This document shows positions 5,045 through 61,653 of a DNA stretch of 64,000 nucleotides, piece by piece (position 1 is the stretch's first letter; every line of letters starts with the position of its first letter). The stretch spans positions 64,961 through 128,960 of the forward strand of contig CAZVED010000001.1 in the NCBI GenBank assembly GCA_964626205.1, written 5' to 3'. A program made the translations under genes and the position numbers. The notes beneath the pieces were generated by a model. It ran no database searches and was not told the DNA's origin. It saw only the letters and a program-made list of their open reading frames with translations. The DNA is from an uncultured Gammaproteobacteria bacterium (GTDB lineage Bacteria > Patescibacteriota > Patescibacteriia > SG8-24).

Positions 5045-6100
5045 ATGGACACCTTTGGCATCATCAAGATTTTCTTCCTCAGCGCGCTGTCGTTCATCGT
5101 CGCCATGATGGTGACGCCGGCGGTCACGCATTTTCTTTATAAGTACCGGATGGGCAAGCAGATCCGCGACGCGGCATCCGCGCCGATCGTGGCGAAACTC
5201 CATGCAGCGAAGGCGGGGACGCCCACCATGGGCGGCATCATCGTCTGGGGGACGGTACTGCTCGTCATGCTCGTTTTCCATTATGGTGCCGTCCTCACGG
5301 GGTGGGCGTTCTTTATGGATTTTACCTTCCTCTCGCGCCCGCAGACGCTCTTGCCGCTCGGGGCATTGGTCGCCAGCGCGCTCGTCGGTCTCGTCGATGA
5401 TTATTGGAACGTGAAGAAGATCGGTCCGTTCGGCGGTGGTCTGCGGTTCCGGCACCGGTTCATGGTCTACTTCGGCATCGCCGCAGTCGGTGCATGGTGG
5501 TTCGCCACGAAGCTGCAGTGGGATCTCTTGCATGTGCCGTTCGTCGGCGACTTCAACATCGGTGCGTGGTACATCCCGGTCTTCATCCTCGTCATCGTCG
5601 CGACGTCGTTCTCGGTGAACCAGGCCGACGGTTTGGACGGGCTTGCCGGCGGGTTGCTGCTCACCGCGTTCGCCACGTATGCCGCCATCGCGTTCGCGCA
5701 GGGCAAGACCGACCTTGCCGCATTCTGCGGAGCCATCGCAGGCGCGCTTCTCGCGTTCCTCTGGTTCAACATCACGCCCGCGCGGTTTTTCATGGGGGAT
5801 ACCGGATCCATGTCGCTCGGCGTGACGCTCGGCATCGTCGCAATGCTCACGAACACGGCACTCCTTCTGCCGATTATCGGCAGCATGTTCGTTCTGGAGG
5901 CCGTGTCGACCATCGTGCAGATTGGTTCCAAGAAGCTCCGTGGAGGGAAGAAGGTGTTCCTGTCCGCACCGATCCACCACCATTTCGAAGCCATCGGATG
6001 GCCGGAAGCGAAGGTCGTCATGCGGTTCTGGATCATCGGTGCGGTCTCCGCGGTCGTCGGACTCATTCTCGCGCTCATGGACATCGGGACCATCCGTTAA
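5045..6100 (+). CDS. mraY: phospho-N-acetylmuramoyl-pentapeptide transferase MraY
   Basis: Motifs PTMGGI, NQADGLDGLAGG and FMGDTGSMSLG. Multi-pass membrane protein, 351 aa. Confidence 0.9.
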   Translation: MDTFGIIKIFFLSALSFIVAMMVTPAVTHFLYKYRMGKQIRDAASAPIVAKLHAAKAGTPTMGGIIVWGTVLLVMLVFHYGAVLTGWAFFMDFTFLSRPQTLLPLGALVASALVGLVDDYWNVKKIGPFGGGLRFRHRFMVYFGIAAVGAWWFATKLQWDLLHVPFVGDFNIGAWYIPVFILVIVATSFSVNQADGLDGLAGGLLLTAFATYAAIAFAQGKTDLAAFCGAIAGALLAFLWFNITPARFFMGDTGSMSLGVTLGIVAMLTNTALLLPIIGSMFVLEAVSTIVQIGSKKLRGGKKVFLSAPIHHHFEAIGWPEAKVVMRFWIIGAVSAVVGLILALMDIGTIR

Positions 6101-6124
6101 GTCGCATAGCATCACAGACCTCCT

Positions 6125-8527
<2,403 letters not shown>

Positions 8528-8530
8528 CCT

Positions 8531-9655
8531 ATGCGGGGCGGGCGGCATGACCTCGTGTTCCTCGCATTGTTGGGCGCGATCATCGTGCTCGGCTTGGTGA
8601 TGCTCACGTCCGCGTCGGGTCCGGTCGCGTACCAGCGGTTCGGTGACGCGTTCTGGTTCCTGAAGCATCAGTTGTTCTTCGGCATCCTTCCCGGAGTCGT
8701 CGCGTTCGCGGTCCTGTCGCGCATCGACTATCGGTTTTGGCGCACGATGGCGTTGCAACTGCTCGTCGCTTCCGTCGTCCTGCTCTTGCTCGTATTCGTT
8801 CCCGGTCTCGGCGCGGAATGGGGAACGTCCCGCAGCTGGATCAATGTTTTCGGCTTTTCCCTGCAGCCTGCGGAAATCGTGAAGCTGACATTCCTCTTGT
8901 ACCTCGCCGCATTGCTCGAAGGGAAAGGGGAGGAGGGTGTTCGCGACCTGTCTGCCGGCCTCGCCCCATTCCTGATTGCGCTCGGCACCATAGCACTCCT
9001 CATCATCCTGCAGCCGGACCTTGGGAGCCTCATGGTCATCGCCGCAATCGCGGTATCCATGTATTTCTTGGCGGGCGCGCCGTGGGTGTACCTGCTCGGC
9101 ATGGGTGGTGCAGGCGTCGTGGCGCTGGCGCTCCTCATCAAGAGCGCACCATACCGCGCCGCGCGCCTCATGACGTTCCTGCATCCGGAGCTCGATCCGC
9201 AGGGTACCGGGTATCACATCAACCAGGCATTTCTCGCCATCGGCTCCGGCGGTCTGTTCGGTCTCGGTCTCGGGCACTCCCGGCAGAAGTATCTCTATCT
9301 TCCTGAGGTCGTCGGTGATTCCATCTTCGCGGTGATGGCCGAGGAGTTTGGTTTCATCCTGATGCTTGGCGTGCTTGCGCTCATTTTGGCGTTCCTGCTT
9401 CGCGGTCTCCGTATCGCGCAGGAAGCTCCAGACGCGTTCGGACGTTTTATCGCGTCGGGTATCGTCGCGTGGGTGTTTTTCCAGACGCTGTTCAACGTCG
9501 GGTCTATGGTCGGTGTCATGCCGATGACCGGTCTGCCGATGCCGTTCGTGAGCTATGGCGGTACGGCGATGCTGGTGATCATGGCGGCAATGGGCATCAT
9601 GGCGAATATCGCGAAGCAGTCAGGTACAAGCGCTTCGCGCACACGACGCTCCTGA
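8531..9655 (+). CDS. ftsW: SEDS-family peptidoglycan polymerase FtsW/RodA
   Basis: About 10 transmembrane helices with SEDS-family architecture. Sits between lon and murG with 1-3 nt junctions. Confidence 0.8.
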   Translation: MRGGRHDLVFLALLGAIIVLGLVMLTSASGPVAYQRFGDAFWFLKHQLFFGILPGVVAFAVLSRIDYRFWRTMALQLLVASVVLLLLVFVPGLGAEWGTSRSWINVFGFSLQPAEIVKLTFLLYLAALLEGKGEEGVRDLSAGLAPFLIALGTIALLIILQPDLGSLMVIAAIAVSMYFLAGAPWVYLLGMGGAGVVALALLIKSAPYRAARLMTFLHPELDPQGTGYHINQAFLAIGSGGLFGLGLGHSRQKYLYLPEVVGDSIFAVMAEEFGFILMLGVLALILAFLLRGLRIAQEAPDAFGRFIASGIVAWVFFQTLFNVGSMVGVMPMTGLPMPFVSYGGTAMLVIMAAMGIMANIAKQSGTSASRTRRS

Positions 9656-9656
9656 T

Positions 9657-10745
9657 ATGCGGCGCATTCTTTTCACTGGTGGAGGGACACTTGGCCCCGT
9701 GACTCCGCTGCTCGCGGTCGCGGAGGCGGTTCGTGTCCACGTTCCGGATGCGGAGCTTTCATGGATCGGCACGATGACCGGCCCGGAGCGGGCATTGGTG
9801 GAGTCTGCCGGCATTCCGTTCTTCGTCGTTCGGTCGGGGAAGCTGCGGCGGTATTTTTCGTTGCGCAACATCTCCGATATTTTCAACATCAAGATCGGAT
9901 TTTTCCAATCGCTGCGGCTCCTGCGGCGTCTGCGTCCGGATGCGGTTATCTCGGCAGGCGGATTCGTCGCGGTACCGGTCATTTGGGCGGCATGGTTCCT
10001 GAGGATTCCCGTGCACATACACGCGCAGGACATCCGCCCAGGGCTTGCTAACCTGTTATCGCTTCCAGTCGCGAGGTCGGTTTCCGTTGCGTTCGCTCCG
10101 TCGCTCAAGGATTTTGAGCGACATCGTCCGGTTTTGACGGGGAATCCGGTCCGCCGAACGGTGCTGTCCGGGTCGCGTGATACAGCCCGCGAGCTTTTCG
10201 GTCTCGAGCATGACGTCCCGACGTTGCTCGTGCTTGGTGGTGGCACAGGGGCGGCGGGCCTCAATGCGCTCGTTCGCGCCGCAACGCCAGAGCTCGGCGT
10301 GTCGATGCAAGTGCTGCATATCACCGGGAAAGGGAAGGGGGATACGACATTCTCGCATCCGCGGTACCACGCGGTCGAGTTCCTCACGGATGCCATGGCG
10401 CATGCCTATGCCGCTGCCGACCTCGTCGTGACGCGCGCGGGCATCGGGACGCTGTCCGAGCTTGCCGCGCTCGCCAAGCCTGCCGTCATCGTGCCGATGC
10501 CGCGTTCGCATCAGGAAGAGAATGCCGCACACTTTTCCGCTGCCGGAGCGGCAATCACGCTTGATGAGATCACCGTGACGCCGGCATCATTCGCGGAAAC
10601 AGTCCTTGCATTGCATGCCGACGCGGCACGTTTACAGGAACTTCGGAGCGGCATGCAGGCACTCGCTGCTCCTGCTGGTGAGCAAGCGGACGCCGCCGAG
10701 GTTGTCGCGGAGCTCGTGTTGCGGATCGCAAGCAAGGGCGGTTGA
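9657..10745 (+). CDS. murG: undecaprenyldiphospho-muramoylpentapeptide beta-N-acetylglucosaminyltransferase MurG
   Basis: N-terminal MRRILFTGGGTLGPVTP glycine loop. GT28 two-domain fold. C-terminal UDP-GlcNAc binding region. Confidence 0.85.
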   Translation: MRRILFTGGGTLGPVTPLLAVAEAVRVHVPDAELSWIGTMTGPERALVESAGIPFFVVRSGKLRRYFSLRNISDIFNIKIGFFQSLRLLRRLRPDAVISAGGFVAVPVIWAAWFLRIPVHIHAQDIRPGLANLLSLPVARSVSVAFAPSLKDFERHRPVLTGNPVRRTVLSGSRDTARELFGLEHDVPTLLVLGGGTGAAGLNALVRAATPELGVSMQVLHITGKGKGDTTFSHPRYHAVEFLTDAMAHAYAAADLVVTRAGIGTLSELAALAKPAVIVPMPRSHQEENAAHFSAAGAAITLDEITVTPASFAETVLALHADAARLQELRSGMQALAAPAGEQADAAEVVAELVLRIASKGG

Positions 10746-12669: not shown

Positions 12670-15009
12670 ATGAAAGCACCTGAACGATCGGGAGCGCCGC
12701 AGTCACCGGAGCTTTCCGGTGACGAGACACCGTCGGAAAAATTGCAAAATGAGCAGGATACCGCACAGGGGAGCGGTCTTGAATTGGCGTTGACGCCGGA
12801 GCAGATTGCCGCGGAGAAGAAGGAACGGGCTGCGAAGGCTGCGCGGGCGGTCGAGTTTTCGCTGGCTGACAATAAGGGACGCGAGCGGATGTCTGCTGAC
12901 GCTGCGCGAGAGCGTGAAGATCGTGCCGAGCAGGAGGCGAAAGAAGCGGCGTTCGCCTTGGCGCGAAAATGGCAGGAGCGTGTTCATGCAGGAAAGAAGC
13001 GTATCGAAGAGAAGGCTGCGGAGGACGGGGGGTCGCTGGCACCAGATGAGCAGAAGGAGAACGATGCGATCGTTACGGAAGCAGAACGAGAGTTTGATGC
13101 GTTCAAGGATTCCATGGACGAGTTTGTCATCACCGACAAGGCTGGTATGGAAGAGGCGTTGGTTGCAGATTCCGGAAAGTGGGCGCGTCCTGCAGAGGGG
13201 GAAGGTATTGCTGCTACGGCGTCTGCTGGAGAGGCCGAAGTTGTGCATTCCGCGACACGCATCGAGGACCTCCGTACCTACGCCAAGGAGATGCGCACAA
13301 AACGTGAGACAGTCGCGACGTTGCGCGCCAAACTGACGAAGTACGACGGCATTGGCGGTATCCGTGCATTGCTGCCTGGCGGCGCTTCCGAGAAGTCCAT
13401 GCTTGCCGCAGAGCTCGTGGAAGCCGAGAAGGACTACGAGGCCATGCGTGCGGAGTACGTCGGTGAGAAGGCCTACCGCAAGAACAAGGAAGAAATGCTC
13501 CTCGCGGATGCTGCAGGTGCCGCTTTGACGAAGGAAAAAGGCGTGAGCGGAAAAGTCTACGACGCATACAAGTGGCTCGGCGATCAGAACCTCACCAAGC
13601 TCGGTTGGAAGCCGACGGGCAAGATCGGTGGTATGGTCGCGCGCGGTGTGAGCTTGCGTTCCGGCGTGAACATCGCCTTGATGGGCGGAGGTTTCGCGCT
13701 CGGTGGCGCTGTTGGGGTGGCCGCGACCATTCCCGCAAGGCGCGTCCTCGGAGGCATTTTCGGATCGGCAAGTTCCTTCGATGGCATGCGGCATTTCTTC
13801 GATCGGCAGAAGAGTCTGTCCCAGGCGGAAGTGAAGAAAATGGATTACGCGGAGCTGCTGTCACGCATGGATGCATTGCGTGCACAGGCGGCGACTGGAG
13901 GCCGTGCGGTTTCCAAGGATGCGGAATTTTTGCGCCTTAAGGCCGAGCTCGGCACGCGCGAGAAGTCGGCGCTGGAGCGCGGACTTCTCACGACGGAGTA
14001 TCTCGGAGAGGCAATGGATGCCGCGAATGATCGTCTCAAGAAGGTCGCGAAAAAGCGGGGTATTCGTGATGCTGCGCTTAAGGGAGTCGCGGTAGGGGTC
14101 GGAACCCTCGTCGGAACCGGAGTGCTCGCGGAGGCTGTCGGCGGCGTGGCGAAAGCCGCGACGAAGGTTGGAGCGGAGGCTGGTAAAATCGGGCTCGAGA
14201 TGGCGGACAGCTTTTTCGGTACGAACACGACACCTGTCTTTACGGAGCCTGTCATCACGGAAGCTGTAACGCTACCATCTGCGGCGGAAGGCGTTGTCGA
14301 TGCTCCGCCAGACATCATTCATGAAGCGCCTTCCGATGCGGTGTCGTCAGACATCCTTCCTGATGCGCCGCCTGAGGAGATTGCTGAGCCTGCATCGTCG
14401 GAGGTACCTAATGGAGACACGGAGCCTGCTGCTGAGGGTCCAGTATCGTTGGATGACGCGCTGCTGAAGCCGGGTGAAGAGGTCGGTGTGTCCGACGAGG
14501 CGCGCGATGCGGTTATTGCGAAGATCAAGGCCACACAGGGCGGCTTGCGTACGGGCGGCGATGTCGTTTCAGAGGTGCCGGTTCAGGATATCGCAGAGAC
14601 AGCGAAGACGACGCTTGAGAGCGGACGGTTTACGTTCGATGGGGGTCGTGCGATGTTCGAGACGGACGATGGTGGGCGTGTCATCAGCGTTGCTGTCGAG
14701 GGTAGGGCCTCTGGAATCCCGGGCGTACTGCGGAACGGATATGAGTTCGATATCGGGAAGCAATCAGACTATTACGGCATGGATGAGTCGTTTGCCGTGA
14801 ACATTGGGGAAGGAGAGGCGAGAGACCTGACATTGCAGATGAATGCCTACAAAGCGATGCTGGATGCGGGAAAGCAGGATACGCCGGAAGGGCGCTTCCT
14901 GGTACAGACCATCCGCGCAGGCGCCAATGATCTTCGGAGGAATTTCGGTGCGAAGATGCTGAAGCCGGGCGTCTTCACGACTATCGCGAAATGGACCGGC
15001 GGCGCATAG
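12670..15009 (+). CDS. large hypothetical protein (779 aa): charged coiled-coil N-terminal region, two glycine-zipper hydrophobic segments, acidic P/E linker, C-terminal globular domain
   Basis: Long ORF with normal codon usage for this genome. No signal peptide. Segments GVAVGVGTLVGTGVLAEAVGGVAKAATKVGAEAG and IALMGGGFALGGAVGVAATIPA. No recognisable catalytic motif. Confidence 0.6.
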   Translation: MKAPERSGAPQSPELSGDETPSEKLQNEQDTAQGSGLELALTPEQIAAEKKERAAKAARAVEFSLADNKGRERMSADAAREREDRAEQEAKEAAFALARKWQERVHAGKKRIEEKAAEDGGSLAPDEQKENDAIVTEAEREFDAFKDSMDEFVITDKAGMEEALVADSGKWARPAEGEGIAATASAGEAEVVHSATRIEDLRTYAKEMRTKRETVATLRAKLTKYDGIGGIRALLPGGASEKSMLAAELVEAEKDYEAMRAEYVGEKAYRKNKEEMLLADAAGAALTKEKGVSGKVYDAYKWLGDQNLTKLGWKPTGKIGGMVARGVSLRSGVNIALMGGGFALGGAVGVAATIPARRVLGGIFGSASSFDGMRHFFDRQKSLSQAEVKKMDYAELLSRMDALRAQAATGGRAVSKDAEFLRLKAELGTREKSALERGLLTTEYLGEAMDAANDRLKKVAKKRGIRDAALKGVAVGVGTLVGTGVLAEAVGGVAKAATKVGAEAGKIGLEMADSFFGTNTTPVFTEPVITEAVTLPSAAEGVVDAPPDIIHEAPSDAVSSDILPDAPPEEIAEPASSEVPNGDTEPAAEGPVSLDDALLKPGEEVGVSDEARDAVIAKIKATQGGLRTGGDVVSEVPVQDIAETAKTTLESGRFTFDGGRAMFETDDGGRVISVAVEGRASGIPGVLRNGYEFDIGKQSDYYGMDESFAVNIGEGEARDLTLQMNAYKAMLDAGKQDTPEGRFLVQTIRAGANDLRRNFGAKMLKPGVFTTIAKWTGGA

Positions 15010-15019
15010 GTCCTGATGA

Positions 15020-15053
15020 AAAAACACCCCCGGTCAGCCGGGGGTGTTTTGTT
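15020..15053. terminator. bidirectional intrinsic terminator shared by convergent genes
   Basis: aaaaaa-cacccccggtcagccgggggtg-ttttgtt. The minus-strand stop codon at 15034 lies in the loop. Confidence 0.8.
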
Positions 15054-16116
15054 GTAGGAAGCGGTACACGGCGCGAAACGTCTGGACGTAATGGACGGTG
15101 GGCTTGAGCAGGCCTGGACGCTTGCGGTCGATGCGCCAGGAGTGTTCTTGCGCCCACGTGTCACCATGACGGAGGAGTGCGCGATGCGAGTATTTCGGAC
15201 CGCCGTTGTAGGTAGCCGCGATGAATGCGCCGAGTTCTTCGTCGCCTGCCGCGATGAAGCGCGTGAGGCGCTTCTTCGGGAGGTCGGCGAGGATAGCGTC
15301 CGCGAGGCAGGTCTCCGCCATAGCGGCGTTCTCGTGATCGCGCATACCGCGGATGAAGTTCGGGTCGAGTCGCGCGCGACGGTAGGTCTGACGCATGCCA
15401 CGATACGTCTTCGGCATGAACTGGTATGCGCCACGCGCGCCGACCGGGGAGACGGCGTAGTCGAACGCGTCCCCGCGGTTCACGGCGAATCCGGTGAACG
15501 CACGGCGTATTGCCGTTTCTGGCGCAATGCCGGCAGCGATCTCTGGCGCTACGCGCTCCACGATGGGGAGCGCCATGAGCGTCAGGTTAGACACGAGCGT
15601 TCCGACCGTTTCTTTCGCATGGCCTGGGATCGTCGAGCGGACGCGGCGCTGGGCGAGTATGCTTCGTGCGGAGGACGTTACGTCTGCGAGGTAGGCGATG
15701 CCATCCTCGACGCGGACGTCGTCCGCGAGCTCGTCCGTTGCCGTGATGGTCGTCACGGCCTTGAACCATGGGCGCCCGGAATGATCGCGGACGTTCATGC
15801 GGAAGGCGAGCGTGACGTAGCCAGGCGGGTCGGTGACCTCGTAGACGGTTCCGACGCCGCCACCGCGCGCGGCACGGAGCGAGAACGCTGGGTCCGTGGA
15901 TGCGCCCTTCCAGACATTGATTGCTCGGACTGGTTCATTGGAACCGAGGAGCCATACCGCAACGACTCCGTGGGTCGCGCCGATGTATCGCGTACCGATG
16001 GGTGCACCATCGAGTAGGGTCACCGCTTCGGTCACCCGCGCGCCCGGAATGGACTGTGCCGTGGCTGGCAAGGTAGCGAGGAGGAGCAAGGCGCAGGACA
16101 GAATCAGGTGGCGCAT
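15034..16116 (-). CDS. secreted lytic transglycosylase-like protein (MltB/SLT_2-like C-terminal domain)
   Basis: Signal peptide MRHLILSCALLLLATLPATA. C-terminal GARGAYQFMPKTY resembles the MltB motif G..GQ.QFMPST. Confidence 0.55.
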   Translation of the reverse strand: MRHLILSCALLLLATLPATAQSIPGARVTEAVTLLDGAPIGTRYIGATHGVVAVWLLGSNEPVRAINVWKGASTDPAFSLRAARGGGVGTVYEVTDPPGYVTLAFRMNVRDHSGRPWFKAVTTITATDELADDVRVEDGIAYLADVTSSARSILAQRRVRSTIPGHAKETVGTLVSNLTLMALPIVERVAPEIAAGIAPETAIRRAFTGFAVNRGDAFDYAVSPVGARGAYQFMPKTYRGMRQTYRRARLDPNFIRGMRDHENAAMAETCLADAILADLPKKRLTRFIAAGDEELGAFIAATYNGGPKYSHRALLRHGDTWAQEHSWRIDRKRPGLLKPTVHYVQTFRAVYRFLQQNTPG

Positions 16117-17330: not shown

Positions 17331-17390
17331 CCGGAGGCGCATCGTATGATAGGAGGAAGTGGGGGAAACCCCGTACATGAAGGAGGTCGT

Positions 17391-18974
17391 ATGGAAGATC
17401 TCACGGTCACCGGACTGCGCCGAAAAGCGCGCTATGTCTCGGTGAGTGACCAGCATCTCTCCGAGGGCGCCTTCATCATGGAGGAGGAGCGCCTGTCGTC
17501 GTGGGAGCGTCTTCGTCGCCGGATGCGCGGCGAAGAGATTCCCGTCGCCCGCGTGGCGAATCCGTTGGAGGACTTCCCGCACGACGAGGAGTTTTCCGCG
17601 TTCATGGACCGTCTCTGCGAAGAGGCGTCCGGGTACGATCGGACCACGCTCGTTCTGAATGGTGACAACTACGATTTCCTCGCGGTCCGCTGGAACGGTC
17701 GTTTCAAGGCGTCGGAGATCGAGTACGAGTACGAAGGTGTCGAGAAGATGCGTGTCATCATCGAGGGGCACCCCGTCTACTTCGACGCGCTGGCGCGGTT
17801 TCTCGCACGGCCGGACACGGAAATCGTGTTCCTGCCGGGCAACCACGATCAGCAGCTCATCTGGCCGGAAGTGCAACGGCTTATCGCTTGGCGCATCGGG
17901 GGTATCGACCCTGGTCGTCGCGCGCGCGTCGTCTTCGTGGATGAGGACGAGCGCGAGCATGGAGTGTTCCGGTTCGAGCGTGACGGCTTGCTCTTCGAGC
18001 ATGGTAACAACGCCGACCCGATCAACTCCACGCCGCCCAAATGCATCCGGCATCCGCGCTTCGGGCGCGGCAAGGGGCTTCCGTACATGGAGATGAACTT
18101 CGGCGCCCGCTGGTCCGAAGCCGTCAACCAGATGAAGCTCCGTAACGAGAAGATCGGACGGAACCACTACGCGGAAGGGTCGCACGTCTGGATCCACGCG
18201 TTGCTGTACTCGTGGGGCTGGTGCCGTACTGCGGCATACTGGTTCCTCGTGACAGTGTTCCGGCTCATCCTTCCGTTCTGGACCGAAGGTTGGCTGCGCC
18301 GCATGGGTCTCGTCTCGGCCGTGCTCGTAAGCACGATCTGGGAGGACAAGGGCGCGATGGACCGGTGGTTGGAGCGTATCCGACGTGCGAAGCCGGGCGT
18401 GAAAGTCATTGTCCATGGGCATACGCATGCCGCAGGGCGCAGGACGGAGGTGGTCGACGACGGATCCAAGCGGACCGTCACGGACATCAACACGGGCACG
18501 TGGATCAGCATGATCCGAGTGACCTGGCCGTCGTTCCCGCTCATGTGGGCGCGCTTCCGGTGGCTGGAGTTCCTGTTACGCGCCTTCGGTCGCTTCCTGC
18601 GGACCGGCAAGATCAGCAACGCAAGCAAGATCATCCGGATCGCATGGATGGTCACGGTCGCTGCCGCGCTCGTCCTGTTCCTGCTTGCGAACTTTCCGGA
18701 GGCAGGGAACGACCTGTTCTGGAATATCAGCCCGAACGACATTCGATGGCCTATCGGCATCGTGCTGACGTTCGTCCTGTTCGCCGCCGGCATCCGCATC
18801 TTCGCGGAGCGTCCGGACGAGCAGGTGTTCCGCAAGCTGACGTTCGCGGACATCTCCTACGGTGTCACTGAGACACCGGGGGAGGACGGAAAGACGCTCC
18901 GGACGTTTGATAGCCTCCGCGCGGATTGCATGGAGTGGATCCCGCAGGAATCGGCGACGCGGGAATGCGTCTGA
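17391..18974 (+). CDS. calcineurin-like metallophosphoesterase with C-terminal multi-pass membrane domain
   Basis: AAGGAGG Shine-Dalgarno then ATG at 17391. Phosphoesterase motifs LNGDNYDF (GDxxD), LPGNHDQ (GNHD) and VIVHGHTHAAG (GHxH). Four C-terminal transmembrane helices. Confidence 0.7.
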   Translation: MEDLTVTGLRRKARYVSVSDQHLSEGAFIMEEERLSSWERLRRRMRGEEIPVARVANPLEDFPHDEEFSAFMDRLCEEASGYDRTTLVLNGDNYDFLAVRWNGRFKASEIEYEYEGVEKMRVIIEGHPVYFDALARFLARPDTEIVFLPGNHDQQLIWPEVQRLIAWRIGGIDPGRRARVVFVDEDEREHGVFRFERDGLLFEHGNNADPINSTPPKCIRHPRFGRGKGLPYMEMNFGARWSEAVNQMKLRNEKIGRNHYAEGSHVWIHALLYSWGWCRTAAYWFLVTVFRLILPFWTEGWLRRMGLVSAVLVSTIWEDKGAMDRWLERIRRAKPGVKVIVHGHTHAAGRRTEVVDDGSKRTVTDINTGTWISMIRVTWPSFPLMWARFRWLEFLLRAFGRFLRTGKISNASKIIRIAWMVTVAAALVLFLLANFPEAGNDLFWNISPNDIRWPIGIVLTFVLFAAGIRIFAERPDEQVFRKLTFADISYGVTETPGEDGKTLRTFDSLRADCMEWIPQESATRECV

Positions 18975-18978
18975 TGTT

Positions 18979-19010
18979 GCCCGCACTCATCTTGAGTGCG
19001 GGCTTTTTTG
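18979..19010 (+). terminator. rho-independent terminator
   Basis: gcccgcactc-atcttg-agtgcgggc followed by tttttt. Confidence 0.8.
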
Positions 19011-19076
19011 TTGCCGATGGCACCTTGCCAATCGGGGAGGAAGAGGGGATACTGGGTGCACACTAACCACCACCTT

Positions 19077-19235
19077 ATGTCCAAGAAACCGTCGTTCTCG
19101 AAGTCCGTCCGCAAGCATATTCGCGTCCAGAAGGGCCTTATCCGTTCGACCGGAACGTCTGCCGAGCAGGCAAAGCGTATCACGGACCTCTACGCGAAGT
19201 TCGCACCGGCCGGTACGCCGCCGTATGCTCGATAA
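19077..19235 (+). CDS. possible small basic protein (52 aa), uncertain
   Basis: ATG-initiated ORF MSKKPSFSKSVRKHIRVQKGLIRSTGTSAEQAKRITDLYAKFAPAGTPPYAR. Its stop overlaps the translin-like start. No strong Shine-Dalgarno. Confidence 0.2.
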   Translation: MSKKPSFSKSVRKHIRVQKGLIRSTGTSAEQAKRITDLYAKFAPAGTPPYAR

Positions 19236-19800
19236 GGCGTACCTTGCCAGCATCCGCGAGCGCAAGGCTGCGACGTCTGAAGGGCGTCGGGAGATTATTA
19301 AATGCTCCGGCGACGCACTCAATGCCTCCAAGCGCGCGATTTTTTCGTTGCACCGTGGTGATACAGAGGGAGCTGATACGTTGCTCAAAGAGGCGGATAC
19401 GCTTTTTGCGCAGGCGCGCGAGCGCATTAAGGACATTCCGTCGCTCGACGGCGTCGGTGCCTATCGTGCTGGGTTGGAAGAATTTGTGGAAGCCACGCTG
19501 TACCGTCAGTTTGCCAAGGATGGTTCGGTCGGTACGGTGGAGTATCCGGATGTCGACGACGATATCTATCTTTCCGGACTCTGCGATCTGGTCGGCGAAT
19601 TGCAGCGGCGTCAGGTGAAGGCGGCAACGGACGGCGACATGGATGCGGTGGTGAAGATCAAGGACGTCATGGACGATATCATCGCATCGCTGCTTGCCAT
19701 CGACCTCGAAGGTACCCTTCGCACCAAGTTCGACCAGGCAAAGAACGCGATGCGTCGCGCGGAAGACGTCCTCTACGACGTGAAACTGCGGACGATGTGA
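19225..19800 (+). CDS. translin-family protein (191 aa)
   Basis: Alignable with archaeal and eukaryotic translin: ...AIFSLHRGD...EADTLF... and YLSGLCDLVGELQRRQ match the translin IRALHRGD / YLLGLADVVGELRR blocks. Stop overlaps the murD GTG start. Confidence 0.6.
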   Translation: MLDKAYLASIRERKAATSEGRREIIKCSGDALNASKRAIFSLHRGDTEGADTLLKEADTLFAQARERIKDIPSLDGVGAYRAGLEEFVEATLYRQFAKDGSVGTVEYPDVDDDIYLSGLCDLVGELQRRQVKAATDGDMDAVVKIKDVMDDIIASLLAIDLEGTLRTKFDQAKNAMRRAEDVLYDVKLRTM

Positions 19801-21287
19801 AGAAGGAGGCTGTCGCCACCACATCGGACTGGTTCCGAAACAAGCGTGTCACCGTCATGGGGCTGGGGCTCAACGGCGGCGGTTCCGGTATGGCACTGTG
19901 GCTCCTGCGTCACGGCGCAAAGGTGACGGTCACGGATCTTAAGGATCAGCATGCGTTGGCGTCATCGATCGCGACGCTCGAACGGGCATTCATCCGCGCG
20001 ACCCATCGCGGGGACAAGCGCCTGTTCCATCGTTTCACCTACGTCCTTGGCAGGCATCGCGAGGAGGATTTCCGCGATGCGGACATCGTCATCAAGGGGC
20101 CAGGCGTACCGAACGGCAATCCGTTCATTGTCGTTGCGGAAAAAGCCGGAGTTCCCGTCGAGACCGACGTGAGCTTGTTCTTCCTGCTCTGCCCGTTTCC
20201 GGTCATCGGTATCACGGGGACGCGCGGAAAATCCACCACGACCTCGCTTGTGGCGGACATGTGTCGCCGTCACGATCGCCGTGCCGTCGTGGGCGGCAAC
20301 ATCCGTATTTCGGTCATGGATGGTTTGGACAAGCTTCTCGCCATCTCGAAGCGTCGTGGCGCCAAGGCGCCGCCTATCGCGTTCGAACTGTCATCATGGA
20401 TGCTCGAGGGTCTGGAACCGCATCATCGTAGTCCGCATATCGCGGCGATTACGAACATCCTTCCGGATCATCTCAATCGGTATCGGAACATGGCGCACTA
20501 TGCGACGACCAAGGTCGGCATCATCCGGTATCAAGACAAGGGTGATGTCGCGGTGCTCAACGCCGATGATGCGCGCGTCGTCGCTGCGGCAAAACGCACG
20601 AAGGCGCAGGTGCGCTGGTGCTCCGCCAAGCCGCTCGCGAAGGGTCGCGACGGGGGATTCCTCAAGAACGGCAACCTGATGCTCCGCGACGACGGTCGCG
20701 ACATCCTGCTCGTTCCACGGAACGCCTTGCGCGTTCCAGGCAGCCACAATGCGATGAACGCCGTCATGGCCGCGGTCATCGCGCATGCCGCAGGGGTTCC
20801 GTTGCAGCACATCCGTGGCGCCATTCGCGCGTTCAAGGGTATTCCCGGACGCATTGAGACGGTCGCAATCAAGGGTGGGGTTACGTTCGTGAACGACACG
20901 ACCGCCACGTCGCCGGATGGCGTCATCGCGGCACTCGACGCGCTCGCTGAGGGCGGAAATAGGGGTCGCATCATCCTTATCGGTGGCGGCACAGACAAGA
21001 ACCTCGTATTCGGGGAGTGGGCAAAGGAGGTTCGTAAACGCGTTGCGCATCTCGTACTTTTCGATGGTACGGCGACGGTCAAGATGGAAGCCGCACTTCG
21101 TAAGGCTGGAGGATTCGCGGCTACAGTCGGCGCTCGCGACATGGGCGAGGCTGTGCGTATCGCGGCAGGACTTGCGCAGAAAGGCGATACTGTTCTTCTT
21201 TCGCCGGGCTGTGCGAGCTTCGGACTGTTCATCAACGAGTTCGATCGCGGTGACCGGTTCGTGCGGGCTGTCCGGCGGATGCGGTGA
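19797..21287 (+). CDS. murD: UDP-N-acetylmuramoylalanine--D-glutamate ligase MurD
   Basis: N-terminal Rossmann region VTVMGLGLNGGGSGMALWLLRHGAKVTVTD. Mur ligase P-loop GITGTRGKSTTTS. GTG start overlaps the translin stop (GTGA). Confidence 0.85.
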   Translation: MKKEAVATTSDWFRNKRVTVMGLGLNGGGSGMALWLLRHGAKVTVTDLKDQHALASSIATLERAFIRATHRGDKRLFHRFTYVLGRHREEDFRDADIVIKGPGVPNGNPFIVVAEKAGVPVETDVSLFFLLCPFPVIGITGTRGKSTTTSLVADMCRRHDRRAVVGGNIRISVMDGLDKLLAISKRRGAKAPPIAFELSSWMLEGLEPHHRSPHIAAITNILPDHLNRYRNMAHYATTKVGIIRYQDKGDVAVLNADDARVVAAAKRTKAQVRWCSAKPLAKGRDGGFLKNGNLMLRDDGRDILLVPRNALRVPGSHNAMNAVMAAVIAHAAGVPLQHIRGAIRAFKGIPGRIETVAIKGGVTFVNDTTATSPDGVIAALDALAEGGNRGRIILIGGGTDKNLVFGEWAKEVRKRVAHLVLFDGTATVKMEAALRKAGGFAATVGARDMGEAVRIAAGLAQKGDTVLLSPGCASFGLFINEFDRGDRFVRAVRRMR

Positions 21288-21302: not shown

Positions 21303-21340
21303 AAAACGCCCCGCACCAGTGATGGTGCGGGGCTTTCGTT
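21303..21340. terminator. bidirectional intrinsic terminator (murD on plus, helicase on minus)
   Basis: gaaaaac-gccccgcacc-agtgat-ggtgcggggc-tttcgtt. Confidence 0.75.
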
Positions 21341-21341
21341 G

Positions 21342-23288
21342 TCAGTGAGTACGCTTGCGACGGTCGCCGTACGGGCGTTCCGAACGGCGTCGTTCGCGCT
21401 TTTGTTGCGACCGCTTCGTCGTCCGCTTGAGGAAGCGGAACGAGGGGACTGTGCGGAGGATCTCGTCGCAGGGGACGATATCCGGGAGCCACGCGGCGGG
21501 AACCGCGTGCAGGCCGCGCGCGTACGTTTCCGATGACTCGATGACGCCGGACGCCACGAGGTACTCCGGTGAGACGCGTCCGCGCAGCGACGATCCGCGG
21601 AACATCTTGATGCCCTTGAGGCGGCGTCCACGGTACGTCTTGCCGGTCTCGTCCTTCATGAGCAGGTTCGCGATGAGCCCCTTGGCGATGGCTTTGCCCA
21701 CCGCTTCGGCACCGTGCGTGTGCGTCACTGGCACGCCGTCCTCTTCGAGGATGGCGATAATCTGCGCTTCCACGTCGAGGATCTCCTCGAGCGCGGTCTG
21801 GTGCAGGTAGTTCGCCTTGGCGAACGCCATGCGGTCGCGGCTGAGCCGCCATGCGGTGACGGCCTTGAGCGTCGTGAGGAAGTCGGAGAAGTCGACGCGG
21901 AACCGCTCGTGAGCGGCGTCTGCGTCTTCCTCCTCGCCCTGCGGACGCACGAAGACCGGTCGCGTGGCGAACGTCGCGGCGATGGTGGCGACCGAACGGA
22001 CGCATCGGAGGTCGGTCGCGGCGAGCACCATCCGTGTCACCGCTGGTGGCAACGGGATGTCGCTCATGCGTTCGCCGTCCTTGGTAAGGTGTCCGTCCGG
22101 CGTGAGGCCGCGGAGCAGGATGAGGCGGTCGCGAGCGTCGTCCCAGAGCGCCGCCGAAGGCGGGTTCAGGAACGGCAGCTCGCGGAGCTCGTCACTGTCC
22201 AGGCCGATGCCTTTCAGCGCAAGCAGGACGGGTTCGAGCGACGAACGCAGGATCTCTGGGACGGTGTACGCCGGACGCTGGCGGAACTCGGCCTCGCTAT
22301 ACAAGCGATAGCAGATTCCCGGTTGCGTGCGGCCCGCGCGTCCGGCTCGCTGGTCGCAGCCGGCCCGCGCGTGCGGCACGACGCGGAACGTCGATGCCGC
22401 CCATGCGGGGTCGTACGACATCTCCTTGATGAGTCCCGAGTCCACGACCGCCGTGAGGCCGTCGAGGGTCAGGGACGTCTCGGCGATGTTCGTCGCGACG
22501 ATGACTGAGCGCCTAGTACGGTCCAGCACCGCTCGTTGTTCATCGGGCGACTGGTTGCCGTAGAGCGCGTAGATGCCGATGTCCGCATGTCGCTGCTCCA
22601 GGAGCGAGACGGTCAGGCGGATGTGCCGTTCGTCCGGCATGAACACCAGGACGTCGCCGTGGGTCTTCTTGAGCGCGCGCGCGGTGAAGTCCGCCGCGTG
22701 GCGGATGACGTCGGGCGAGCTGCCGACATATTCGATGTGCACCGGATGTGTACGTCCTTTGACGTGGATCACCGGGGCATCGAACGCCTGCGCAAAACGC
22801 TGTTCGTCGAGTGTCGCGCTCATGAGCACGAGCTTCAGCTCCGGACGCGCCGCGAGGACGGCCGGCATCAGCGCCATGAGGACGTCCTGGTTGATGCCGC
22901 GCTCATGCACCTCGTCCAAGATGATCACGGCGTATTTGCTGAGCAGCGGATCCGAACGCATTTCCCGGAGGAGGATGCCCTCGGTCGCGTACTTCACGCG
23001 CGTGGTCGAGTCCGTCACGTTCTTGTGGCGGATCTGGTAGCCGATCTCGGTGCCGAGTTCGGTACCATGGAGCGAGGACGCATACGCGCTCACTGCCATG
23101 GCGGCGATGCGGCGCGGTTGCGTGCAGACGATCTGGCCGGCGTTGCCGGACCAATCGTCCAGGAGCATAAGCGGGACCCGCGAGGTCTTTCCGCAACCGG
23201 TCTCGCCGGCGATGACCGTGACCTGATGGCGTCGGACGGTATCCGTGATTTCGGCAACGTGAGCATCGATGGGCAGGCGTGCTTGCAC
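21342..23288 (-). CDS. ATP-dependent DEAH-box helicase, HrpA/HrpB-like (649 aa from GTG)
   Basis: Motifs GETGCGKTS and DEVHER, helicase C-domain and HA2-like region, basic C-terminal tail. Start reassigned to GTG at 23288 with a perfect AAGGAG Shine-Dalgarno 6 nt upstream; the track's TTG at 23339 is less likely. Confidence 0.85.
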   Translation of the reverse strand: MQARLPIDAHVAEITDTVRRHQVTVIAGETGCGKTSRVPLMLLDDWSGNAGQIVCTQPRRIAAMAVSAYASSLHGTELGTEIGYQIRHKNVTDSTTRVKYATEGILLREMRSDPLLSKYAVIILDEVHERGINQDVLMALMPAVLAARPELKLVLMSATLDEQRFAQAFDAPVIHVKGRTHPVHIEYVGSSPDVIRHAADFTARALKKTHGDVLVFMPDERHIRLTVSLLEQRHADIGIYALYGNQSPDEQRAVLDRTRRSVIVATNIAETSLTLDGLTAVVDSGLIKEMSYDPAWAASTFRVVPHARAGCDQRAGRAGRTQPGICYRLYSEAEFRQRPAYTVPEILRSSLEPVLLALKGIGLDSDELRELPFLNPPSAALWDDARDRLILLRGLTPDGHLTKDGERMSDIPLPPAVTRMVLAATDLRCVRSVATIAATFATRPVFVRPQGEEEDADAAHERFRVDFSDFLTTLKAVTAWRLSRDRMAFAKANYLHQTALEEILDVEAQIIAILEEDGVPVTHTHGAEAVGKAIAKGLIANLLMKDETGKTYRGRRLKGIKMFRGSSLRGRVSPEYLVASGVIESSETYARGLHAVPAAWLPDIVPCDEILRTVPSFRFLKRTTKRSQQKRERRRSERPYGDRRKRTH

Positions 23289-23342
23289 GGGTAGCTCCTT
23301 GGTAAAAGGACCACGCTCCGGGGACGACCCGCGGAACAAGCG

Positions 23343-59862: not shown

Positions 59863-61653
59863 TTACGCCGTCCGCTTCTTGCGCAATGCTGCGAAGAGGA
59901 GCGAGGCGACGACGATTCCTGCGAGGAGGCTCCAAGCGAGCATGTTCCCCGGAGAGAGGGAGCCCGTGTTCGGGAGCGTCGGGACGACGACCGGAGCGAC
60001 GGCGACGACGACTGTCGCGATCGCGAAGTCGCGGGCGGTCAGGCCATTGGCATCACCGGCCGCAACGACGGTGTTCACTGTCGTCTGCGTGAGGTTCGTG
60101 CTGCAGGTGTAGACCCAGGACTCCGTCGGCTCCAACAGCGCGTTGCCGTTGGCATCGCCAGAGACGTAGCTCACCGGGCCGCACTTGTCGTCCGTGAGGC
60201 GGACGTTCTGCAGCGGCACGGTACCCGGGTTGGTGACCCTATTGGTGTACGTGACCATTCCACCGCCAGCGAGGAGTGTCAGCGGGTTCGGGACCTTGGT
60301 CACGTTAATCAGCGGAGGAACAATCGGTGCGCCGACGACGACTGTGGCGCTCGCGATGTCGGTCGCAGAAAGGCCATTCGCCCAACCCTTCGCGACGATG
60401 GTGTTGGTGTGCGTTTCTGTGAGCTGGGTGAAGCAGTGATACACCCACGTCTCATTCACGTCGAGCTGATTGTCGTTGTCGGTGTCACCGGAGGTCCGGT
60501 TGATAGGGCTGCAAGTGTCTCCGATCATTGAGATGTCGGTCACTGGGACGGTTCCGATGTTGCGGAGCGTGTAGGTGTAGTCCACGAGACCTGGACCGCC
60601 AGGCAAGGAGAGCGGGCTCGGCACCTTCACGACATCAATCAACGGCGGGACAGGGGGAGCCACTGGTGCTACTGGCTCGGCGATGTCGTTGTTCGTGATA
60701 ATGCAGAACTTGTGCTCATTAGCACCGAGGCTGATACCGCCGGTTGCGTTGCAATCACCGGAGAACGACTGTGTGTACCCGGCAGTGTTCGTTTCTGTGG
60801 CGTAGTAGAGGGATGCCGATGCAGGGAATACCGTTGCGCTGCCGGATACGACGGATACGCCGGATACGGACAAGGGGAAGTCGACGACGTGCTTGGTACC
60901 GCCGCCATCGTTGATGACGTGCTTAACGACGGTGATGCTCGACTGTTGCGAACCGCCGCCCGGCGCTTGTGCGCACGTCGGCTCGGTAATCTGCGAGTTG
61001 ATCATCGTCACCTGGGCGATGTGCGACAAGGCGCGTCCTTTCAAGGTCGCGGAATCCCCAAGGGAGATGAGCGAGGTGTTGGTGATGATGGTTCCTTCCA
61101 TGTGCGACCCGGCGCCGATGGTCATGGAATCCGCAACTGCCCAGAATACGTCGCTCGCGCAGGCACCGTTCGTCAGGACCATCTGTCCAGTGACCGGAGT
61201 CGTGGAGGAGCCGAGGAAGACGTAGACACCAGCACCGTCGAGCGTAAGGGTGCCGTTCAGTGAGGTTGCAGCAACATTATAGGTGCCCGGTCCAATCGTG
61301 TTGACCCCAGCAAGATCGAGAATGACGCCAGGACCTTGGGCTGTGAGTGCACCATAGGCGTTGCTGATGTCAGTCTGGAGCGCGGCCGGAGTCGGGGCGA
61401 TGATCGATCCATCGACCTGTGTCACGTCGTCGAGGTTCGTGATGCTTGGCAAGGAATCAGCACCGACGTTGCCCCAGTGATGCGTCGTTCCGACGTTGGA
61501 ATTATTCGTTACCCCTGCCTTACCCCAAGCCGAGAAAGGAGCGGCGGTACCAAGGTTTGGTGCCGTTGCCGCAGAAACAGAAATCGGCGTGACAACGCCG
61601 AAGAAGAACGAGAGCACCGCAGTTGCTAGCGAGAGCTTATTGAGTATTTTCAC
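59863..61653 (-). CDS. LPXTG-anchored surface protein: DUF3494/ice-binding-like N-domain plus two ~100-aa DUF11/CARDB-like repeats
   Basis: Signal peptide. C-terminal LPNTG, hydrophobic helix, RKKR. Tandem repeats (I/V)(D/N)V(V/T)KVP(S/N)PL(S/T)L...(Y/V)TYT..N.GTVP...W.VY.C.T.LT. GTG start. Confidence 0.75.
   Translation of the reverse strand: MKILNKLSLATAVLSFFFGVVTPISVSAATAPNLGTAAPFSAWGKAGVTNNSNVGTTHHWGNVGADSLPSITNLDDVTQVDGSIIAPTPAALQTDISNAYGALTAQGPGVILDLAGVNTIGPGTYNVAATSLNGTLTLDGAGVYVFLGSSTTPVTGQMVLTNGACASDVFWAVADSMTIGAGSHMEGTIITNTSLISLGDSATLKGRALSHIAQVTMINSQITEPTCAQAPGGGSQQSSITVVKHVINDGGGTKHVVDFPLSVSGVSVVSGSATVFPASASLYYATETNTAGYTQSFSGDCNATGGISLGANEHKFCIITNNDIAEPVAPVAPPVPPLIDVVKVPSPLSLPGGPGLVDYTYTLRNIGTVPVTDISMIGDTCSPINRTSGDTDNDNQLDVNETWVYHCFTQLTETHTNTIVAKGWANGLSATDIASATVVVGAPIVPPLINVTKVPNPLTLLAGGGMVTYTNRVTNPGTVPLQNVRLTDDKCGPVSYVSGDANGNALLEPTESWVYTCSTNLTQTTVNTVVAAGDANGLTARDFAIATVVVAVAPVVVPTLPNTGSLSPGNMLAWSLLAGIVVASLLFAALRKKRTA

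What the first reader, a model, noticed from the sequence alone, without database searches (positions are those of the whole stretch)
19225..21287. Translin-family protein translationally coupled to murD
- **Translin homology.** The 191-aa protein aligns to translin/TRAX: ...GDALNASKRAIFSLHRGDTEGADTLLKEA... and ...YLSGLCDLVGELQRRQ... match the hallmark IRALHRGD and YLLGLADVVGELRR blocks. This nucleic-acid-binding/RNase family is mostly eukaryotic and archaeal, and rare in bacteria.
- **Coupling.** Its stop (TGA 19798-19800) overlaps the GTG start of murD. This implies co-translation with a peptidoglycan ligase.
- **Fragmented dcw cluster.** murD is detached from the other dcw genes, which lie 9 kb away with lon inserted.
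Basis: partly seen in the sequence, partly recalled or inferred. Interest (0 to 1): 0.55.

Follow-up and report, generated by a model that had tools for sequence, protein, structure and literature searches.

The report
TRAX-like nuclease gene heading murD operon
A small protein of the translin/TRAX nuclease family, best known from eukaryotes and archaea, sits directly in front of the cell-wall gene murD in this uncultured Patescibacteria-type bacterium, and the same gene precedes cell-wall ligase genes in about 90% of related genomes; nobody has tested what it does there.

Summary
ORF 19225-19800 (191 aa) matches Pfam Translin PF01997 at 78 bits against a cutoff of 25.9, over the full length. 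Its AlphaFold model (pLDDT 92.8) superposes on archaeal C3PO subunits at TM 0.86-0.89. It resembles TRAX, the catalytic subunit, more than translin. The four metal-binding residues of Nanoarchaeum C3PO map to E86, E89, D121 and E125, which are invariant in 28 homologues.

Its TGA stop overlaps the only possible murD start (GTG 19797) in the string ATGTGA. That junction is identical in two closely related metagenome contigs.

Two terminators bracket a three-gene unit: a conserved 52-aa basic ORF, the TRAX-like gene and murD.

The family is common in Uhrbacteria/Magasanikbacteria-type Patescibacteria (198 species genomes hit). In 65 of 71 informative loci a Mur ligase (MurE, or GT2-MurD-MurE) follows on the same strand within 1.6 kb, although the outer neighbours vary. 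Direct contact with murD is a derived state that followed loss of an intervening GT2 gene.

Most likely this is a homo-oligomeric Mg2+-dependent RNA/ssDNA endonuclease co-expressed with cell-wall genes. A direct role in cell-wall synthesis or division is unproven. I rate it a new member of a known family in a previously unreported conserved context.

The parts
18979..19003 (+). Intrinsic terminator-like hairpin (11 bp stem, T tract) that ends the upstream metallophosphoesterase gene and marks the 5' boundary of the unit
19025..19053 (+). Sigma-70-like promoter candidate, TTGCCA-17-GATACT. The GATACT element is identical in two related contigs.
   Evidence: This is a consensus match only.
19078..19235 (+). 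Small basic ORF (52 aa from ATG 19078). Its TAA overlaps the translin ATG by 11 nt. It is conserved directly upstream of the translin gene in Uhrbacteria-type loci and has no known family.
   Evidence: HMM hits in 22 sequences, 18 of them the training set incl. the window, always directly upstream of the translin gene. Independent gene calls exist in L081-L084 and the P0005 contig. No Pfam hit.
19225..19800 (+). TRAX-like translin-family protein, 191 aa, six-helix subunit. Predicted metal-binding tetrad: E86, E89, D121, E125.
19795..19800 (+). ATGTGA junction: the translin stop TGA (19798-19800) overlaps the murD start GTG (19797-19799)
   Evidence: Identical in L081 and L082.
19797..21287 (+). 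murD, UDP-N-acetylmuramoyl-L-alanine--D-glutamate ligase, 496 aa
   Evidence: TIGR01087, 357 bits
21308..21333 (.). Bidirectional terminator hairpin (11 bp stem, 9 GC pairs) shared by murD (+) and the convergent HrpA-like helicase gene (-)
5045..10745 (+). The detached remainder of the dcw cluster in this window: mraY 5045-6100, lon 6125-8527, ftsW 8531-9655, murG 9657-10745

Best explanation
ORF 19225-19800 encodes a bacterial (Patescibacteria) member of the translin superfamily. It is of the TRAX / archaeal single-gene C3PO type. This is a roughly 190-aa helical subunit that probably assembles into a closed homo-oligomer, an octamer by analogy. That oligomer would cut single-stranded RNA or DNA inside its cavity by a two-metal mechanism using E86, E89, D121 and E125.

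In this genome it is the middle gene of a compact unit bounded by terminators: a small basic ORF, the TRAX-like gene, then murD. Each downstream start overlaps the preceding stop (11 nt and 4 nt). No recognisable Shine-Dalgarno sequence precedes the two downstream starts. MurD synthesis is therefore probably fed by ribosomes terminating on the nuclease gene.

The direct contact with murD arose when a GT2 glycosyltransferase gene was lost. That gene separates the two in more distant relatives. The ancestral and strongly conserved arrangement places the nuclease gene at the head of the Mur-ligase/division block: (murG)-(P-type ATPase)-TRAX-like-[hyp-GT2-murD]-murE-bPH-divIC-ppiC-ftsEX.

Shown here: family, fold, conserved active-site residues, overlaps, and synteny. 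Inferred: oligomeric state, nuclease activity, substrate, translational coupling, and co-expression with growth and division genes. The most economical functional reading is a housekeeping RNA-processing or RNA-decay nuclease whose expression is tied to the cell-wall operon. It need not be an enzyme of peptidoglycan synthesis.
For: Family. PF01997 scores 78 bits over the full length.

TRAX-like character. A profile of 28 homologues hits NeC3PO at 4e-21, fly and human TRAX at 1e-17 to 5e-15, and AfTRAX at 2e-16. Translin proper reaches only 3e-9 to 1e-7, and only over the C-terminal half.

Active site. The NeC3PO catalytic residues Glu82, Glu85, Asp117 and Glu121 (PMC5100593) map to E86, E89, D121 and E125. 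The RNA-binding and interface residues Ser26, Lys34, Arg124, Arg163 and Asp167 map to S28, K36, R128, R166 and D170. All but S28 are invariant in alignment A1.

Fold. The AF2 model has pLDDT 92.8. It matches NeC3PO at TM 0.86-0.88 with rmsd 2.3, and AfC3PO at TM 0.88-0.89 with rmsd 1.9.

Operon boundaries and overlaps.

Junction conservation. ATGTGA and the small-ORF overlap are conserved in L081 and L082. A gene also starts 4 nt before the translin stop in the P0005 contig.

Synteny. 65 of 71 loci with at least 1.5 kb of downstream sequence carry a Mur ligase on the same strand within 1.6 kb; 68 of 71 do within 5 kb. These loci range from 30 to 68% GC and their translin is 39-56% identical to the window's. 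By contrast, the commonest upstream neighbour reaches 31 of 65. The commonest gene family after the ligases (bPH/DivIC) reaches 25 of 57.
Against: - No biochemical data exist for any bacterial member.
- The oligomeric state was not modelled.
- The protein falls far below the cutoffs of the archaeal NCBIfam equivalogs PRK14562.x (92 bits against 228). It is therefore a separate clade whose substrate may differ.
- Conserved gene order in small, dense genomes can persist through operon inertia alone.
- In archaea the TRAX homologue is linked to SepRS, not to wall genes (PMC5424206). Context is therefore not conserved across domains.
- Three loci (L056, L059, L065) have no recognisable Mur ligase downstream.
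- No Shine-Dalgarno sequence or transcript data confirm coupling.
Confidence: 0.6

Rival explanations
1. The TRAX-like nuclease is a functional component of the cell-wall/division programme. For example, it could process the polycistronic mur/div mRNA, or act on a tRNA or small RNA needed for peptidoglycan synthesis. Linkage to Mur ligase genes would then be selected for function rather than for co-expression alone.
For: The translin-to-Mur-ligase linkage survives in 92% of loci while both outer neighbours are reshuffled. When murD and murE were separated in the window's clade, the gene stayed with murD. GT2 was lost in more than one locus type without breaking the link (window, L001, L030, L072). 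murG, divIC and ftsEX lie in the same block in many loci.
Against: There is no fusion with Mur or division domains among the best 150 representatives; the long hits checked are tandem translin domains from eukaryotes. Nothing known about C3PO connects it to wall synthesis. dcw clusters commonly carry unrelated passengers, such as lon in this window. No experiment has been done.
Confidence: 0.2
2. The protein is a non-catalytic, translin-like nucleic-acid-binding scaffold or chaperone rather than a nuclease.
For: Translin proper shares the fold and binds RNA and ssDNA without cleaving. JGI names homologues only as 'predicted translin family RNA/ssDNA-binding protein'.
Against: All four metal-ligand residues that distinguish TRAX from translin are present and invariant. 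Profile scores favour TRAX and archaeal C3PO over translin by about 8-12 orders of magnitude.
Confidence: 0.1
3. The adjacency and overlap with murD are an accident of genome compaction, with no regulatory consequence. On this view murD is translated independently.
For: Four-nucleotide overlaps are among the commonest junctions in prokaryotic operons (established knowledge). Direct contact exists only in the nearest relatives, and a GT2 gene intervenes elsewhere. The AAGGAGG just after the start is not conserved.
Against: There is no alternative start and no recognisable SD upstream of GTG 19797. The junction is identical in relatives whose flanking third codon positions have diverged.
Confidence: 0.1

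Closest known systems
Nanoarchaeum equitans C3PO (NeTrax, NEQ131; PDB 5jr9/5jrc/5jre) and Archaeoglobus fulgidus C3PO (AfTRAX; 3zc0/3zc1)
   Same: - Single-gene, roughly 190-aa minimal subunit.
- Same helical fold: TM 0.86-0.89.
- Same E-E-D-E metal-binding tetrad.
- Same Ser/Lys/Arg substrate-contact residues.
- Same Arg/Asp inter-subunit salt-bridge residues (PMC5100593).
   Different: - Bacterial host.
- Only 22-27% identity.
- Scores below the archaeal NCBIfam equivalog cutoffs.
- Genomic context is Mur ligase and division genes, whereas many archaea place it in a SepRS-type context (PMC5424206).
- Activity and oligomeric state are untested.
Eukaryotic TRAX (catalytic subunit of the translin-TRAX C3PO complex; 3pja, 3axj, 3riu)
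   Same: It shares the catalytic tetrad and the overall fold. The profile matches both halves of TRAX.
   Different: No separate translin partner gene was seen in the loci examined. The protein lacks the eukaryotic insertions and N-terminal extension (191 aa against about 270-290). RNAi does not exist in these bacteria, so its cellular role must differ.
Bacterial translin-superfamily proteins of Chloroflexi (Gupta, Kale and Kumar 2012, J Mol Evol, as cited in PMC5100593)
   Same: Single translin-superfamily gene in a bacterium, related to the archaeal proteins.
   Different: Different phylum. The Patescibacteria clade and its Mur-ligase context were not found in any paper searched. I did not compare sequences with Chloroflexi members directly.

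Membership tests
Translin superfamily (Pfam PF01997) | Sequence match above the Pfam gathering score, over the whole domain | tested here: met
   78 bits against 25.9, E = 1.3e-21, model positions 3-204 of 205
Translin superfamily (Pfam PF01997) | All-helical subunit fold of translin/TRAX/C3PO | tested here: met
   AF2 model with pLDDT 92.8 and six long helices. The 50 best Foldseek PDB hits listed are all translin/TRAX/C3PO, with TM up to 0.89.
TRAX / C3PO catalytic subunit | Four acidic metal ligands (HsTrax Glu123/Glu126/Asp193/Glu197 as given in PMC5100593; NeC3PO Glu82/Glu85/Asp117/Glu121) | tested here: met
   E86, E89, D121 and E125 align to the NeC3PO tetrad and are invariant in 28 homologues
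TRAX / C3PO catalytic subunit | Substrate-contact residues (NeC3PO Ser26, Lys34, Arg124) | tested here: met
   S28, K36 and R128. K36 and R128 are invariant.
TRAX / C3PO catalytic subunit | Closed homo- or hetero-oligomer (octamer or hexamer) with an internal active site | not testable with these tools
   Only a single chain could be modelled. The interface residues R166 and D170 (NeC3PO Arg163 and Asp167) are conserved, which is suggestive only.
TRAX / C3PO catalytic subunit | Mg2+/Mn2+-dependent endonuclease activity on ssRNA or ssDNA | not testable with these tools
   Requires biochemistry
Archaeal translin-like equivalogs (NCBIfam PRK14562.1-1 to 1-6) | Score above the curated equivalog cutoff | tested here: not met
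   Best is NF011161 at 92 bits against a cutoff of 228. The protein is related to these families but forms a distinct clade.
MurD (TIGR01087), for the downstream gene | Score above the equivalog cutoff, with the three Mur ligase domains | tested here: met
   357 bits against 212. MurD-like_N, Mur_ligase_M and Mur_ligase_C are all present.
Translationally coupled gene pair | Stop/start overlap on the same strand, with no alternative start | tested here: met
   ATGTGA at 19795-19800. There is no other in-frame start before the conserved N-terminal strand. The junction is identical in L081 and L082.
Translationally coupled gene pair | Downstream translation depends on upstream translation | not testable with these tools
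   Needs a reporter or ribosome-profiling experiment

The most novel reading that the evidence does not exclude
In the Uhrbacteria/Magasanikbacteria branch of Patescibacteria, a TRAX-like nuclease is an integral working part of the cell-wall/division gene programme. It could mature or degrade the mur/div polycistronic mRNA. It could instead act on a tRNA or small RNA that feeds peptidoglycan synthesis. Either way, RNA cleavage would be coupled to Mur ligase production. The conserved 52-aa basic protein upstream could be its partner or regulator.
Probability: 0.15. Interest if true: 0.7.

Novelty: new member of a known kind. Interest (0 to 1): 0.45.

Why it matters
C3PO/TRAX nucleases have been studied in eukaryotes (RNAi, tRNA processing) and in two archaea. 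The literature I could search records bacterial members only in Chloroflexi.

This work finds a large, well-conserved bacterial clade with an intact active site, in organisms with very small genomes. In such genomes a retained gene is likely to be important.

Its near-universal position ahead of murD or murE gives a concrete, testable hypothesis about how these uncultured bacteria tie RNA metabolism to cell-wall growth. It also offers a minimal, easily expressed C3PO for biochemistry.

If the link turns out to be only co-expression, the finding is a useful annotation correction and a lineage marker rather than new biology.

Tried and rejected
- Exact look-up of the window's own translin protein on assembled contigs found nothing. 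The taxon is therefore inferred from relatives' record titles, which name Patescibacteria, Uhrbacteria, Parcubacteria and Magasanikbacteria.
- tblastn with the window MurD first suggested that Magasanikbacteria-type loci lack a Mur ligase after the translin gene. Clustering and NCBIfam showed that the gene there is MurE.
- I searched the window for murE, GT2, hyp28, divIC, ppiC, ftsX, bPH and the P-type ATPase. Only an FtsE-like ABC ATPase at about 43.1-43.8 kb turned up.
- The AAGGAGG at 19803-19809, just after the murD start, looked like a Shine-Dalgarno sequence for a later start. No start codon follows it and it is not conserved in L081 or L082, so I rejected it.
- Pfam searches of the small basic ORF, hyp28, hyp19 and the 779-aa and 359-aa neighbours gave nothing significant.
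- Rfam found only four tRNAs in the window and nothing near the locus.
- Literature searches for translin with Patescibacteria, candidate phyla radiation, COG2178 or murD found nothing relevant.
- I looked for domain fusions that could hint at function. The long hits checked are tandem translin domains from eukaryotic algae, not fusions with wall enzymes.
Full report
**1. Observation**

The bases at 19795-19800 read ATGTGA. This holds the last Met codon of the ORF, its TGA stop, and, shifted by one base, the GTG (19797-19799) that opens a 496-aa ORF ending at 21287.

The downstream ORF is MurD. TIGR01087 scores 357 bits against a cutoff of 212, and the MurD-like_N, Mur_ligase_M and Mur_ligase_C domains are all present. 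The next in-frame start codon is codon 21, inside the conserved KRVTVMGLGLNGGG strand. TIGR01087 aligns from residue 17. GTG 19797 is therefore the only workable start, and the 4-nt overlap is real.

The rest of the dcw cluster in the window is mraY 5045-6100, lon 6125-8527, ftsW 8531-9655 and murG 9657-10745. murE is not in the window. All three parts of the observation are confirmed.

**2. What the protein is**

- **Pfam.** PF01997 (Translin) matches at E = 1.3e-21 and 78 bits against a cutoff of 25.9, over positions 3-204 of the 205-position model.
- **NCBIfam.** The best hits are the archaeal PRK14562 models, which are mislabelled 'haloacid dehalogenase superfamily protein'. They score up to 92 bits, well below their equivalog cutoffs. 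The protein is related to the archaeal proteins but forms its own clade.
- **Solved structures.** A profile of 28 homologues (A1) searched against PDB sequences gives Nanoarchaeum equitans C3PO (NEQ131) at 4e-21, Drosophila and human TRAX at 1e-17 to 5e-15, and A. fulgidus TRAX at 2e-16. Translin proper reaches only 3e-9 to 1e-7, and only over the C-terminal half.
- **Active site.** Zhang et al. (PMC5100593) give the NeC3PO two-metal site as Glu82, Glu85, Asp117 and Glu121. They give substrate contacts as Ser26, Lys34 and Arg124, and inter-subunit salt bridges as Arg163 and Asp167. In a pairwise alignment these map to E86, E89, D121, E125, S28, K36, R128, R166 and D170 of the window protein. 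All but S28 are invariant across A1.
- **Fold.** An AlphaFold2 model built on A1 has mean pLDDT 92.8 and six long helices. Foldseek against the PDB returns NeC3PO (TM 0.86-0.88, rmsd 2.2-2.3) and AfC3PO (TM 0.88-0.89, rmsd 1.9). Every one of the 50 best hits listed is a translin, TRAX or C3PO chain.

The protein is best described as a TRAX-like, archaeal-type single-gene C3PO subunit.

**3. Distribution**

The word-indexed protein search found 210 relatives. Nearly all are 188-196 aa, and the names given are Patescibacteria, Uhrbacteria, Magasanikbacteria or Parcubacteria.

The scan of one genome per GTDB species found 198 encoded relatives, and the 80 best were kept as L001-L080. The exhaustive profile search of 1.84 billion cluster representatives found 2,643 proteins at E <= 1e-3 and 373 at E <= 1e-30.

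The family is thus rare among bacteria as a whole but widespread in this lineage. The window has 60.6% GC. Its nearest relatives are metagenome contigs at 87%, 85% and 74% identity.

**4. The transcription unit in the window**

A strong terminator-like hairpin at 18979-19003 follows the upstream metallophosphoesterase gene. A sigma-70-like site (TTGCCA-17-GATACT) lies at 19025-19053. A bidirectional hairpin at 21308-21333 separates murD from a convergent HrpA-like DEAH helicase gene at 21342-23339, on the minus strand.

Between promoter and translin gene lies a 52-aa basic ORF (ATG 19078 to TAA 19233-19235). Its end overlaps the translin ATG by 11 nt.

This small ORF is conserved. An HMM built from 18 copies (the window's and 17 from related loci) matches 22 sequences, every time directly upstream of the translin gene. 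All are Uhrbacteria-type, and none is Magasanikbacteria-type. Independent gene callers also called it in L081-L084 and in the P0005 contig. It has no Pfam match.

I see no Shine-Dalgarno-like sequence in front of the translin or murD starts (direct reading). The AAGGAGG just inside murD is not conserved. The simplest reading is three genes translated as one coupled unit. This is an inference.

**5. Is the translin-murD adjacency conserved?**

In the two closest relatives with DNA available (L081 and L082), the order small ORF, translin, murD and the ATGTGA junction are identical, while neighbouring third codon positions differ. In the 74%-identity contig a gene of at least 279 aa starts 4 nt before the translin stop. 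At 59% identity and beyond, a GT2 glycosyltransferase gene of about 230 aa follows the translin gene and precedes murD. Direct contact is therefore a derived state caused by loss of GT2. Similar losses are seen in L030, L001 and L072.

I clustered ORFs from the 80 loci and named the clusters with Pfam and NCBIfam. Three layouts emerge:

| Layout | Gene order |
|---|---|
| Magasanikbacteria-type | (RpoD-MurG ...) or P-type ATPase, then translin, MurE, (bPH), DivIC, PpiC/SurA-like, FtsE, FtsX. A variant runs translin, MurE, GT2, then Wzy-like (-) and Fmt (-). |
| Uhrbacteria-type | P-type ATPase, (small ORF), translin, hyp28, GT2, MurD, MurE, bPH, DivIC |
| The window's clade | GT4, metallophosphoesterase, (small ORF), translin, GT2, MurD, then HrpA (-) or a hypothetical gene (-) |

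Of 71 loci with at least 1.5 kb of sequence downstream, 65 (92%) have a Mur ligase on the same strand within 1.6 kb of the translin stop. MurE comes first in 39 and MurD first in 26. Within 5 kb the count is 68. These loci span 30-68% GC, and their translin is 39-56% identical to the window's.

As an internal control, the commonest upstream neighbour (P-type ATPase) reaches only 31 of 65. The commonest gene family after the ligases (bPH/DivIC) reaches 25 of 57. The link between translin and a Mur ligase has therefore survived rearrangements on both sides.

The exceptions are L056, L059 and L065, where downstream ORFs have no recognisable family.

**6. How it most likely works**

Shown here:
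- family membership and fold;
- a conserved two-metal site;
- conserved substrate-contact and interface residues;
- the stop/start overlaps and the terminator-bounded unit;
- conserved synteny with Mur ligases.

Inferred, by analogy with NeC3PO and AfC3PO:
- a closed homo-oligomer that cleaves single-stranded RNA or DNA in its cavity with Mg2+ or Mn2+;
- a single promoter and chained translation that tie its production to that of MurD.

I consider a housekeeping RNA-processing or RNA-decay role, co-expressed with growth and division genes, the most economical explanation (confidence about 0.6 for the whole package). A direct role in the wall or division programme is possible but unsupported beyond synteny (about 0.15-0.2). 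A non-catalytic binding role is unlikely given the invariant tetrad. In archaea the TRAX homologue sits in an ancestral operon with SepRS (PMC5424206), so genomic context is not conserved across domains. That argues against reading too much into the bacterial context.

**7. Comparison with what is known, and novelty**

The closest characterised systems are the archaeal single-gene C3POs (NeC3PO, AfC3PO) and eukaryotic TRAX. The window protein shares their size class, fold and catalytic apparatus. It differs in host, in sequence clade (below the archaeal equivalog cutoffs) and in genomic context.

Published surveys cited in PMC5100593 list bacterial members only in Chloroflexi. Full-text searches for translin with Patescibacteria, candidate phyla radiation, COG2178 or murD found nothing relevant. 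JGI's pipeline already labels homologues 'predicted translin family RNA/ssDNA-binding protein', so family membership itself is not new.

What appears unreported is the size of this bacterial clade, its intact active site, and its conserved position at the head of the Mur-ligase/division block. I rate it a new member of a known kind with an interesting, testable context, and give it an interest of 0.45.

Noticed in passing
window 19078-19235 (+); also L002-L005, L007, L009-L012, L014, L018, L024, L044, L045, L049, L062, L078, L081-L084 directly upstream of the translin gene: A conserved 47-56-aa basic ORF (motif RS.R.HIR..KA.IRR ... ELY.KF) always abuts or overlaps the translin start in Uhrbacteria-type loci. 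This holds whatever gene lies further upstream. It has no Pfam family. It could be a partner or regulator of the nuclease.
   Followed up: partly
proteins P0125, P0129, P0132, P0136, P0142, P0205, P0256: Among the best matches to the Patescibacteria profile are 330-690-aa proteins with two tandem translin domains. The two that carry a source name come from stramenopile alga transcriptomes (Chattonella, Coscinodiscus). The C-terminal domain keeps the E-E-D-E tetrad and the N-terminal one appears not to. This looks like a covalently fused translin-TRAX pair.
   Followed up: partly
L002, L003, L006, L014, L015, L022-L024, L026 and many others (record titles): Many contigs with this Patescibacteria-type synteny are deposited under titles such as 'uncultured Gammaproteobacteria', Vicinamibacterales, Acutalibacteraceae or Binatia. 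These are probably mislabelled or mis-binned MAG contigs.
   Followed up: no
L071 3021-5525 and L078 6218-8731: In two Uhrbacteria loci the Mur ligase after GT2 is an ORF of about 835 aa. L071's ligase domains start only at residue ~519; its ~500-aa N-terminal extension has no family match. L078 was not scanned.
   Followed up: partly
L059 6197-10327: In Uhrbacteria GW2011_GWE2_46_68 the positions normally held by murD and murE are occupied by three consecutive ORFs of 475, 460 and 437 aa with no Pfam match at all.
   Followed up: partly
window 6125-8527 (+): A full-length Lon protease gene is inserted between mraY and ftsW inside the dcw cluster.
   Followed up: no
window 21342-23339 (-): A short (665 aa) HrpA/HrpB-like DEAH RNA helicase gene converges on murD and shares its bidirectional terminator. 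The same neighbour recurs in L008, L014, L023, L026, L081 and L082. It is a second RNA-metabolism gene next to the unit.
   Followed up: partly
window 17346-18974 (+): A 542-aa protein with a weak calcineurin-like phosphoesterase match and a hydrophobic C-terminal half is the conserved upstream neighbour in the window's clade. It takes the place held by the P-type ATPase in other clades.
   Followed up: no
window 12670-15009 (+) and 15034-16116 (-): Large ORFs of 779 and 360 aa have no significant Pfam match. The 360-aa ORF has only a faint SLT transglycosylase hint (E = 0.013).
   Followed up: no
window 59863-61653 (-): A 596-aa protein with an ice-binding-like domain (PF11999) plus DUF7507.
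   Followed up: no
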